Origin: Octopus vulgaris
Taxonomy: Eukaryota
Direction: 5' to 3'
DNA length: 64,000 bases
Assembly: GCA_951406725.2 (NCBI GenBank)
Contig: OX597832.1
Location: 19,406,001-19,470,000 of the forward strand
Positions 3,403 through 56,623 of the stretch are shown here, piece after piece; within the stretch, counting starts at the first letter, position 1, and each line of letters starts with the position of its first letter. The translations under genes and the position numbers were made by a program. The notes under the pieces are model-generated. The model saw only the letters and a list, made by a program, of their open reading frames with translations. It did no database searches and was not told where the DNA came from.

Positions 3403-3450
3403 GCAGACATTTATATAGATATATGCTCTTATATATATATATATATATAT

Positions 3451-3677
3451 ACTTTATTAAAAAGCAGAAAAATTTCAACAAAGATTGCTTGTTACTCAGA
3501 GTTTCACGTTTCCGTTCGTTGGATAGTTTTATTTAGAAAACTGTCCGACGAAACGGGAATGTGAAATTCTGAGTAACAGTTTTTGTTATTTTTTGATGCT
3601 TTTTAATAAAGTATATTACTCTTGTATTCGAGTAATATGTTCCCCACCTTGTTCCGCATTTATGTACTTACTCTGGT
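3451..3677 (+). mobile_element. Fold-back mini-element carrying two divergent hammerhead-like motifs, inserted in (TA)n
   Basis: Arms ~3452-3530 and ~3537-3611 are imperfect inverted repeats; the right arm continues into a unique tail to 3677. Homologous to 31583-31763 and 55877-56067. Confidence 0.8.
3537..3583 (+). ncRNA. Type I minimal hammerhead-like ribozyme (U4C core)
   Basis: AAAACTGT-CCGACGA-AACGGGAATGT-GAAA-TTCTGAG-TA-ACAGTTTT. Perfect 8-bp stem I (AAAACTGT/ACAGTTTT), short stem II, GUA cleavage triplet. Confidence 0.65.
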
Positions 3678-31275: not shown

Positions 31276-31573
31276 GGCTGTGCCTTAGGGTGGGTGGTGA
31301 AGTGAGTGGTTTGGTGTGAAAGCGGGGTTAAGACGGGGTTGTGTCATTTCTCCTTCGCAGTTTAATTTATATATGGATGGTGCGGTGAGAGAGGTAAATG
31401 CTAGAACTTTTGGTAGGGGAGCCCGAATGGTGGTAGAAAATGGAGAGAAATGATAGGTGAGTCGGTTCTTCTTTGCTGGTGATACAGCAATGTTGGTGGT
31501 TTCAGAAGAGCAACTGATGAGACTAGTAGTAGAGTTTCGAAGGGTGTGTGAGAGGAGGAAGCTCAAAGTGAAT
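31276..31573 (+). pseudogene. RTE-clade LINE reverse-transcriptase fragment
   Basis: Translates EWFGVKAGLRRGCVISPSQFNLYMDGAVREVNAR..VSRFFFAGDTAML..EEQLMRLVVEFRRVCERRKLKVN. These are decayed GLRQGC.LSP and F/YADD motifs; in-frame stops present. Confidence 0.9.
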
Positions 31574-31582
31574 AATATATAT

Positions 31583-31763
31583 AAAGCTGCAAAATTTCAC
31601 ATTCCTGTTCGTCGGACATTTACAAGTCTCCGACGAACGGGAGCATGAAACTCTAAGTAACAATTCTGTTATAATTTAGCAGCGTTAATAAAATATACAC
31701 GACTCTACCTTTGGTATTCGTGTACTGTTTTTCGACTTTACTTTGCACTTGTGCTCACCTCTG
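31583..31763 (+). mobile_element. Fold-back twin-hammerhead mini-element (copy 2)
   Basis: tttcacattcctgttcgtcgga is inverted against CCGACGA-ACGGGAGCAT-GAAAC-TCTAA-GTA (31630-31659); tail homologous to 3610-3677. Confidence 0.7.
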
Positions 31764-31870: not shown

Positions 31871-32058
31871 ATATATATAGCGAGAAGTTGAGGTTATAAG
31901 AGATAATGGTGTCATTGAGACCCAAATGTGTCAGGTAATGCTGAATAAGTGCTATAGACAGACCATAGTTAAGTTCCAGATTGGGTAATATTTCCTCCAC
32001 CTCACTCTGTATTTGTATCACATCGAAACTAACCATGACTTAATTATTCCTCTCACAC

Positions 32059-55876: not shown

Positions 55877-56061
55877 CCGGAGTAAACACATGAATGTGAA
55901 ACAAGGTGGAAAAAAGAGTACTCAAATACCAGTGGTAGAGTAATATGCTTTATTTAAAGCAGCAGAAAATTCAACAAAACGTGTTACTCTGAGTTTCCCT
56001 TTGCGGCAACGGGAAACTCAGAGTAACAGGTTTTGTTGAATTTTCTGCTGCTTTAAATAAA

Positions 56062-56067
<6 letters not shown>
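55877..56067 (-). mobile_element. Fold-back hammerhead mini-element (copy 3, youngest)
   Basis: Near-perfect ~60-bp-arm palindrome at 55943-56067; each arm retains GAAAC-TCAGA-GTA-AC; tail at 55877-55942; (TA)n on both sides. Confidence 0.85.
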
Positions 56068-56114
<47 letters not shown>

Positions 56115-56178
56115 TATATATCGTTGCTATGATGTTAAACTGTCGTATGTCAAAATTTAAACAAATACGTTGTTTTAA

Positions 56179-56226
<48 letters not shown>

Positions 56227-56229
56227 TAT

Positions 56230-56623
56230 ATATCGTTGCTATTATGTTAAACTGTCGTATGTCAAAATTTAAACAAATACGTTTTTTTAATATTTAGTTT
56301 TGCATTCAACAACCGGTTCTGTTGGTCAAACTATCGTATCTCCAGCTGCTTCGGATGCCAAGATATGAAAATTGTCAAAATGCAGTACAAAGGTTTAGCA
56401 TTTTTTCAAAATGGTACTATGTCCTACATTCGACAGTTTTGATAAAATATTTCTGACTGAAAATATTATGCATGCATGACGTTGCCATTTTATGCACCCA
56501 ATATTCTTAATATGAAACTGTTGCTAACGTAAAAAATGAAATATAATGGTGAAACTATTTTTTCTTTTTCTGAAAAAAGCGACGTTTCGGAGCTTCGAAT
56601 CTTTTGCATAATAACAACAACAT
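56230..56623. mobile_element. MITE of the same family as 28433-28690, with a duplicated left end at ~56118-56180
   Basis: TIRs atatcgttgctattatg / cataataacaacaacat in (TA)n. Confidence 0.75.

What the first reader, a model, noticed from the sequence alone, without database searches (positions are those of the whole stretch)
3451..3677. Fold-back twin-hammerhead element family (3451, 31583, 55877)
Seen: three copies of one element, each an inverted repeat whose arms are hammerhead sequences pointing away from the centre. The reconstructed motif is CTGT-CCGACGA-ACG-GGAA-CGT-GAAAC-TCTGA-GTA-ACAG. One arm extends into a unique ~65-75-bp tail. The inversion point differs per copy: upstream of stem I at 3530, near stem I at 31620, and inside stem II at 56003. 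In copies 1 and 3 the short arm stops at the same place (..AATAAAG) where (TA)n begins. Inference: this may be a reproducible snap-back or twin-priming insertion product, as inverted terminal repeats are known in Penelope. Transcription in either direction yields one sense ribozyme plus its own antisense, making a fold switch between a self-cleaving RNA and a ~60-80-bp hairpin (potential ADAR or Dicer substrate).
Basis: partly seen in the sequence, partly recalled or inferred. Interest (0 to 1): 0.72.

Follow-up and report, generated by a model that had tools for sequence, protein, structure and literature searches.

The report
Head-to-head stubs of Penelope retrotransposon
The three hairpins are very short mirror-image insertions of the end piece of an abundant Penelope-like jumping gene, likely written by two copying starts on one RNA; only one of their six arms keeps a whole ribozyme core, so they are unlikely to be RNA switches.

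Summary
The three inverted repeats are real, but they are not a separate element family. They are extreme 5'-truncated, head-to-head insertions of the pseudo-LTR end (minimal type I hammerhead plus 71-nt tail) of a Hydra-clade Penelope-like retrotransposon with thousands of copies and intact 711-aa ORFs in this genome. Inverted pLTRs with a one-sided tail and opposite-strand hammerhead pairs are in print (PMC3846280, PMC8557442, PMC4209133). Outer ends fall at +37 or +108 from the cut site; every classifiable pair joins one of each (28 of 28 old, 32 of 32 young). The tail-less arm reaches further inward in 12 of 32 pairs, which argues against single-strand snap-back. Inner ends pile at -42 to -47, not at the ribozyme cut (30% versus 6% step). 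Likely mechanism (inferred): both target strands prime copying of one uncut RNA, and the cDNAs join by microhomology. The switch idea fails: 1 of 6 arms keeps the core, the hairpin is 61 kcal/mol more stable, and cores decay neutrally. The scan reached this reading earlier on other DNA.

The parts
3452..3538 (-). Copy 1 short arm: pLTR end from -45 to +37 relative to the hammerhead cut site; ribozyme broken (G5 to A, stem I mismatched)
3537..3676 (+). Copy 1 long arm: pLTR end from -37 to +108; shares AA (3537-3538) with the short arm at the joint
3537..3583 (+). Only complete minimal type I hammerhead in the three copies: stem I 3537-3544/3576-3583, core 3545-3551 (U4C), stem II 3553-3562, GAAA 3563-3566, predicted cut after A3575
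   Evidence: sequence; fold energy of the isolated motif -0.6 kcal/mol; activity untested
3612..3676 (+). Copy 1 tail (65 nt here, 71 nt in the family) between the two outer end sites; runs on into the 5' UTR in intact elements
31583..31621 (-). Copy 2 short arm, internally deleted (stem III and cut site missing)
31629..31763 (+). Copy 2 long arm from about -30 to +107; 5' strand of stem I lost at the joint; about 7 nt of filler at 31622-31628
55877..56004 (-). Copy 3 long arm from -19 to +108 (young subfamily); no CUGANGA
56004..56062 (+). Copy 3 short arm from -21 to +37, 61 of 64 identical to young natural copy L163; no CUGANGA; 1-bp overlap at 56004
3430..3451 (.). (TA)n target tract left of copy 1; TA tracts also flank its right end and both ends of copy 3

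Best explanation
The three hairpins are short head-to-head insertions of the end piece of a Hydra-clade Penelope-like retrotransposon, each likely made when the two DNA ends of a cut in a (TA)n tract primed copying of one uncut element RNA at two start sites and the two copies likely joined at their inner ends by a few matching bases. Shown: the pLTR end (hammerhead plus tail) belongs to an element with one RT/endonuclease ORF; outer ends sit at +37 or +108; pairs are always one of each; arm lengths are concordant; joints mostly carry 1-6 shared bases. Inferred: +37 and +108 are RT start sites, as measured in vitro for the anole element PAc. When both starts lie in the 5' pLTR, copying runs off near the RNA's 5' end (predicted at about A-46, in an initiator-like CCATTCT; initiator consensus recalled), which gives 80-150-nt arms. 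Starts in a downstream pLTR give kilobase arms. The ribozyme is carried along as a passenger, does not set the breakpoints and decays neutrally afterwards.
For: Identity: overlapping copies lead from the hammerhead unit through a 1.3-kb UTR to a decayed ORF. Single loci hold ORF plus this pLTR: L139 has a direct 5' pLTR remnant, ORF and 3' pLTR; L142 has short inverted arm, endonuclease and long arm. A young sister subfamily has intact ORFs (P0001), a 3359-bp tandem unit and ends 76-82% identical to window copy 1. One long plus one short end: 28 of 28 classifiable adjacent old pairs (43 adjacent pairs among 90 anchors; 15 had a decayed end; P 4e-9) and 32 of 32 classifiable young pairs (34 found in 64 loci). 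Further-reaching arm is the short-ended one in 12, the tailed one in 7, tied in 13. Six of 34 joints are perfect centres on the self-complementary word CTAG, and two hand-picked pairs centre on other 6-bp palindromes; a loop-less centre needs two strands. Arm lengths: 34 short pairs (one of them arguably mixed) and 15 long pairs (partner's outer end not seen in 3) against about 21 mixed expected for independent arms, P 6e-11. Inner ends: 32 of 64 at -42 to -47, 2 of 64 beyond. Genome-wide exact counts drop 30% from -45 to -50 (2335 to 1631) and 6% across the ribozyme cut (4716 to 4422). PAc cuts and extends both strands, starts RT at two internal sites that bound the tail, and does not need its hammerhead (PMC11167929).
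Against: No RNA 5' end was observed. All 19 of 19 pLTRs that run on into an ORF extend past -46 (to -54 up to more than -1500), so full-length copies do not run off at the predicted start; they need a read-through or circular template, which is an extra assumption. Some short pairs pass the edge (4 hand-picked pairs reach -56 to -96). Unpaired ends are common: 44 of 90 old anchors and 12 of 61 young insertions show no inverted partner in the range fetched. Variants shared by both arms (10 shared, 6 one-sided in 25 pairs; only 2 private) do not separate one RNA from two RNAs of one source locus or from later conversion. Asymmetric deletion at the centre of a perfect palindrome (recalled phenomenon) could also make either arm the longer one. 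Pfam found no family in P0001 at E 0.001; its domains are read from motifs.
Confidence: 0.7

Rival explanations
1. Snap-back: one cDNA starts at +108, folds on itself (or self-primes on an antisense template, as proposed in PMC3846280) and is copied outward to +37, where it is joined to the target; later central deletions vary the joint.
For: Concordant arm lengths and shared variants follow naturally; palindromes at inverted junctions were read as self-priming in PMC3846280.
Against: The tail-less arm reaches further inward in 12 of 32 young pairs, by 644 bp in L316 and in window copy 1. Mirror-image joints occur with either arm longer (L309/L322, L308/L323). Tail-less ends also occur alone (22 of 44 old solos). 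At tail-less ends the element's C+38 is replaced by target T in 53 of 57 cases, as expected of a primed start.
Confidence: 0.17
2. Two separate RNPs (or the two RNAs of a dimer) each prime one strand; same outcome, but two RNA molecules.
For: PAc is predicted to be a dimer (PMC11167929); intermolecular joints fit; shared variants can come from one source locus.
Against: Independent RNAs would not by themselves give 60 of 60 long-plus-short pairs or the near absence of short/long mixed pairs.
Confidence: 0.08
3. A non-autonomous palindromic mini-element (MITE or retrozyme-like master) that is copied as a unit.
For: Six of 34 young short pairs share the same CTAG centre; outer ends are fixed.
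Against: The two ends differ (+37 versus +108), most joints are unique, and there is a continuum from 200-bp hairpins to kilobase pairs holding ORF parts.
Confidence: 0.03
4. A selected RNA switch between self-cleavage and a long hairpin.
For: Copy 1 plus arm keeps a full core, and the hairpin is strong.
Against: One of 6 window arms and 16 of 35 old copies keep the core; lethal and harmless CpG changes are equally frequent (13 versus 14 of 66, P 1.0); the energy gap is 61 kcal/mol; the antisense arm is always made first; single minimal PLE hammerheads showed no cleavage in vitro (PMC4209133).
Confidence: 0.02

Closest known systems
Endonuclease-positive Penelope-like insertions with inverted pLTR and one-sided tail (A. 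vaga Pen2a, PMC3846280; Fig. 2 legend of PMC8557442)
   Same: Inverted 5'-truncated copy next to the element, tail at one end only, palindromes or overlaps at the inverted junction, partial tandems.
   Different: Tail is 71 nt rather than 30-40; most insertions sampled are reduced to the two pLTR ends; the long/short pairing is counted here.
Hydra clade of PLEs (PMC8557442 section 11, files S1 and S2), including Hydra-2_aMil and Hydra-1_Obim
   Same: RWK, DKT, CxCX5C linker, no CCHH, CxxC and CxH near the C-terminus, (TA)n targets. The hammerhead has the same stem I core and stem III as Hydra-2_aMil (ctgt...actc N gagt a acag). Penelope-13_HM is listed with an inverted copy at its 5' end.
   Different: Hydra-1_Obim has another hammerhead sequence, is 2507 bp and has no pLTR recorded; this family's unit is 3.36 kb. 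The old subfamily has a U4C core.
Dual minimal hammerheads on opposite strands 100-700 bp apart in Schistosoma mansoni (PMC4209133)
   Same: Minimal type I hammerheads with palindromic helix III from truncated PLEs, in opposite orientation.
   Different: Here the motifs are usually less than 100 bp apart and the link to the ORF is shown locus by locus.
PAc (Poseidon, Anolis) in vitro system (PMC11167929)
   Same: Two internal RT start sites bound the tail; both strands cut and extended; AT-rich targets; hammerhead not needed.
   Different: Different clade; here the hammerhead lies about 176 nt upstream of the first ATG rather than overlapping it; inverted products were not described in the parts I read.
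L1 twin priming (recalled, no call)
   Same: Two primers from the two target strands, joined by microhomology.
   Different: In L1 the two cDNAs cover different parts of the RNA; here the same 3' segment is present twice.

Membership tests
EN+ Penelope-like element | Single ORF with RT and C-terminal GIY-YIG endonuclease | tested here: met
   P0001, 711 aa, has MGAYDG and YRDD motifs and a GVVY..YTG..R..H module; it resembles Hydra proteins seen in the supplement by eye; Atlas neighbours carry GIY-YIG or RVT_1 in part of their members. Pfam itself gave no family at E 0.001. Old-subfamily ORF fragments are 43-75% identical to it.
EN+ Penelope-like element | pLTRs from partial tandems | tested here: met
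   Tandem unit of 3359 bp in L163; 19 pLTRs run on into an ORF.
EN+ Penelope-like element | Inverted 5'-truncated copy at the 5' end | tested here: met
   46 of 90 old anchors; 49 of 61 young insertions, or 49 of 64 with three solos seen by chance.
EN+ Penelope-like element | Tail at one end only (30-40 bp in print) | tested here: met
   One-sided in 60 of 60 classifiable pairs; length 71 nt, longer than in print.
EN+ Penelope-like element | Target-site duplication | tested here: inconclusive
   Flanks are (TA)n on both sides, so a duplication cannot be read.
Hydra clade | RWK motif and DKT in place of DKG | tested here: met
   RLRWKA and SDKTRN in P0001; DKTR also in old copy L135.
Hydra clade | CxCX5C linker; CCHH absent; CxxC and CxH around the conserved E and N | tested here: met
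   CNCKNESSC, no cysteine pair inside the GIY-YIG core, CRLC before E, CRH after N (definition).
Hydra clade | Insertion in (TA)n and canonical hammerhead | tested here: met
   TA tracts flank nearly all of 45 insertions listed. The young core is CTGATGA; the old majority is CCGACGA.
Hydra clade | Generally shorter than 3 kb | tested here: not met
   Unit 3359 bp because of a 1.2-kb UTR; the paper gives this as a tendency, not a rule.
Hydra clade | RT groups with Hydra elements in a tree | not tested
   Reference proteins were seen only as paper text; no tree was built.
Active minimal type I hammerhead | Intact core and three stems in each arm | tested here: not met
   1 of 6 window arms; 16 of 35 old copies keep the core.
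Active minimal type I hammerhead | Self-cleavage | not testable with these tools
   Needs a bench assay; U4C lowers activity in vitro (PMC3088659).
MITE | Fixed symmetric terminal inverted repeats and fixed length | tested here: not met
   The two ends differ; joints and lengths vary.
Non-LTR retrozyme | Head-to-tail tandem units, each with a hammerhead | tested here: not met
   Window copies are head-to-head; definition from 10.64898/2026.07.22.740005. One short direct doublet was seen among 90 anchors (L229).
L1-type twin priming | 3' end present once; inverted part does not overlap it (recalled) | tested here: not met
   Both arms carry the same segment up to +37.

The most novel reading that the evidence does not exclude
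Thousands of these stubs are a fossil record of the unsolved Penelope insertion reaction: one uncut RNA is copied twice, from +37 and +108, by the two cut target strands; the copies stop at the capped 5' end near -46 and anneal to each other, while full-length tandem copies come from a different (read-through or ribozyme-circularised) template. The young, intact Hydra-clade family supplies a protein and exact coordinates to test this.
Probability: 0.55. Interest if true: 0.6.

Novelty: new member of a known kind. Interest (0 to 1): 0.33.

Why it matters
As a sequence feature it is ordinary: leftovers of a known transposon class with a known shape. Its value is mechanistic. PMC8557442 names the origin of tandem/inverted PLE structures as an open question, and the counts here (strict long-plus-short pairing, either arm longer, a step at -46 and none at the ribozyme cut) favour a two-start model and give exact predictions. 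The family also adds an apparently active Hydra-clade element with thousands of short DNA palindromes to this genome. The same reading has already come up in this scan in other genomes, so this locus is a further case in another clade rather than a first sighting.

Tried and rejected
Rfam scan: the 150 best of 379 matches shown were microsatellite-driven, nearly all miRNA families, with no hammerhead family; 229 were not shown, so this says nothing either way. The repeat finder was swamped by microsatellites. The GIY-YIG fragment in L028 was a false lead: it is a 200-bp nested piece of another PLE family inside a long inverted arm, and that family's 4271-bp unit does not match the window element. 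Sequencing runs: no RNA holder listed on record; only contigs from runs guessed to be RNA, which cover the pLTR and show two opposite-strand joints but cannot show a start, strand or level, so they were not used. Empty-site search to ask whether TA tracts predate insertion: 1 informative case of 45 (a TA tract already present in a SINE-like repeat), inconclusive. Lower non-CpG divergence in the core (12 of 269) than downstream (306 of 2373) was not taken as selection on copies: the core is A-rich, and the downstream figure includes differences between source elements and alignments that run into flanks. Pfam on 70 of 182 window ORFs found no family, so host gene context is unknown. Test of run-off at -46 in full-length copies failed (0 of 19) and is counted against the simple model. 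Literature searches for a published two-start model found the structure but not that model; subscription papers are not covered. Supplements of PMC11167929 and of the bioRxiv preprint were not read.

Full report
Observation. The three inverted repeats are present and related. Positions below are counted from the predicted hammerhead cut site (A17 = 0). Copy 1 joins a minus arm (-45 to +37) to a plus arm (-37 to +108) through a shared AA. Copy 2 joins a deleted minus arm to a plus arm from about -30 to +107. Copy 3 joins a minus arm (-19 to +108) to a plus arm (-21 to +37) (and the sequence). The motif is a minimal type I hammerhead with a near-palindromic stem III. Only the copy 1 plus arm keeps all of it.

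Family. The genome has 2.8 Gb in 227 contigs; a cephalopod is my untested guess from size and repeat load. An exact 19-mer of the older subfamily occurs 2219 times and a 25-mer of a younger one 4291 times, both with 0 control matches. Walking upstream through overlapping copies gave a 1.3-kb microsatellite-rich UTR and then a decayed ORF. Single loci carry ORF and this end together (L139, L141, L142). A protein search found a young sister subfamily with many open 727-codon frames; its ORF is P0001, 711 aa, its unit is 3359 bp and its ends match window copy 1 at 76-82%. Copy 3 is 61 of 64 identical to it in the plus arm. An earlier lead, a GIY-YIG piece in L028, proved to be a nested fragment of another family.

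Clade. P0001 has the motifs that PMC8557442 gives for the Hydra clade (section 11 read): RWK, DKT, CxCX5C, no CCHH, CxxC and CxH. Its hammerhead resembles that of Hydra-2_aMil and differs from that of Hydra-1_Obim (supplement part 2). Pfam gave no family for it and no tree was built, so membership rests on motifs, target and hammerhead.

Outer ends. In 90 old-subfamily anchors taken in chromosome order from one contig, ends cluster at +37 and +108. Forty-six have an upstream inverted partner (43 within 200 bp) and 44 have none in the 1.5 kb (30 loci) or 4 kb (60 loci) fetched. Of the 43 adjacent pairs, 28 could be classed and all 28 are long plus short; 15 had a decayed end. In 64 young loci (70 fetched, 6 duplicates dropped) there are 34 short pairs: 32 long plus short, 2 with a damaged end, none long/long or short/short. 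Forty-nine of 61 young insertions are inverted pairs; this tally includes one pair seen by chance, leaves out three solos seen by chance, and pairs have two chances to be listed.

Inner ends. In the young short pairs 32 of 64 arms start at -42 to -47 and 2 of 64 beyond (pairs were admitted if both arms started inside -110). In the old set the rate of stopping is 0.43-0.58 per 10 nt between -30 and -49 and 0.05 or less beyond -60. Genome-wide, exact matches fall 30% between -45 and -50 and 6% across the ribozyme cut. A at -46 lies in an initiator-like CCATTCT (consensus recalled). Joints show shared bases in 25, blunt ends in 5 and inserts in 4 of 34; six are perfect centres on CTAG. The short-ended arm reaches further inward in 12 pairs, the tailed arm in 7, and 13 tie. 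Arms are both short or both long far more often than independent arms would be.

Mechanism (inferred). PMC11167929 (parts 1 and 2 of 4 read) shows for the anole element that both strands are cut and extended, that RT starts at two internal sites bounding the tail, and that hammerhead mutants still insert. The simplest reading here is that the two target ends prime at +37 and +108 on one uncut RNA, the copies end near its 5' end when the 5' pLTR is used, and they anneal and fill in. Snap-back of one cDNA cannot give a longer tail-less arm or a loop-less centre unless later deletions are added. Against the model: 19 of 19 ORF-bearing pLTRs run past -46, four hand-picked short pairs pass the edge, solos are common, shared variants are uninformative, and no RNA end was seen.

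Ribozyme and switch. In 35 old copies chosen by their UTR or ORF (35 of 38 aligned), 16 keep the core; G-to-A at G5/G8 (13 of 66; G8 essential per PMC11167929, G5 recalled) equals C-to-T at the same CpGs (14 of 66). The copy 1 hairpin is 61 kcal/mol below any fold that keeps the hammerhead, and in both directions the antisense arm is made first. PMC4209133 (parts 1 and 2 of 4 read) found no cleavage by a single minimal motif, and PMC3088659 (passages) notes that U4C lowers activity. Editing or dicing of the hairpins remains possible as a side effect and is untested.

What is known. Inverted pLTRs with a one-sided tail and palindromic junctions are described in PMC3846280 (passages) and PMC8557442 (passages), and opposite-strand pairs of minimal hammerheads from truncated PLEs in PMC4209133. 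10.64898/2026.07.22.740005 (part 1 of 5 read) defines tandem retrozymes, which these are not. My searches did not find the two-start model in print. I had reached the reading before that look-up; followed it.

Verdict. Real feature, new family of a known kind, switch not supported; moderate interest for the mechanism it helps to test.

Noticed in passing
L061 (G000:C1:27840001-27850000) and L063-L074: A second young PLE family with a 4271-bp tandem unit has two overlapping frames: a 430-aa ORF1 and a 775-codon RT plus GIY-YIG frame whose first Met is at codon 140, overlapping by about 94 nt, the same in most copies fetched. Possibly a programmed frameshift; PMC8557442 Fig. 1 legend mentions frameshifted ORF1 in some PLE types.
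   Followed up: partly
L061 minus strand 9665, 5394, 1123; window 3545-3551: Two unrelated PLE families here carry a U4C hammerhead core (CCGAAGA in the intact 4271-bp family, CCGACGA in the old Hydra subfamily). Searches that require CUGANGA would miss them.
   Followed up: partly
window 31340-31580 and 31880-31950: Copy 2 interrupts a decayed reading frame that looks like a LINE reverse transcriptase of RTE type (label recalled; frame continues on the other side). The left flank has only a short TA run, so part of the right-hand tract may have grown after insertion.
   Followed up: partly
window 56112-56290: About 70 bp just right of copy 3 are duplicated in tandem with a TA tract between the copies.
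   Followed up: no
L009, L010, L018, L019 (G000:C10:95.25-95.53 Mb): The same solo long-ended insertion recurs four times with the same flanks, so it predates a local gene or segment duplication; L010 shows an exon-like stretch ending in a splice donor about 85 bp upstream.
   Followed up: no
L028 oriented 770-970: A 200-bp GIY-YIG fragment of another PLE family and a SINE-like repeat are nested in the inverted arm of this family's insertion.
   Followed up: yes
L304, L314, L334 joints: Three young joints hold 13-17-nt inserts, partly copied from nearby element sequence, as in end joining with templated insertions (pathway recalled).
   Followed up: no
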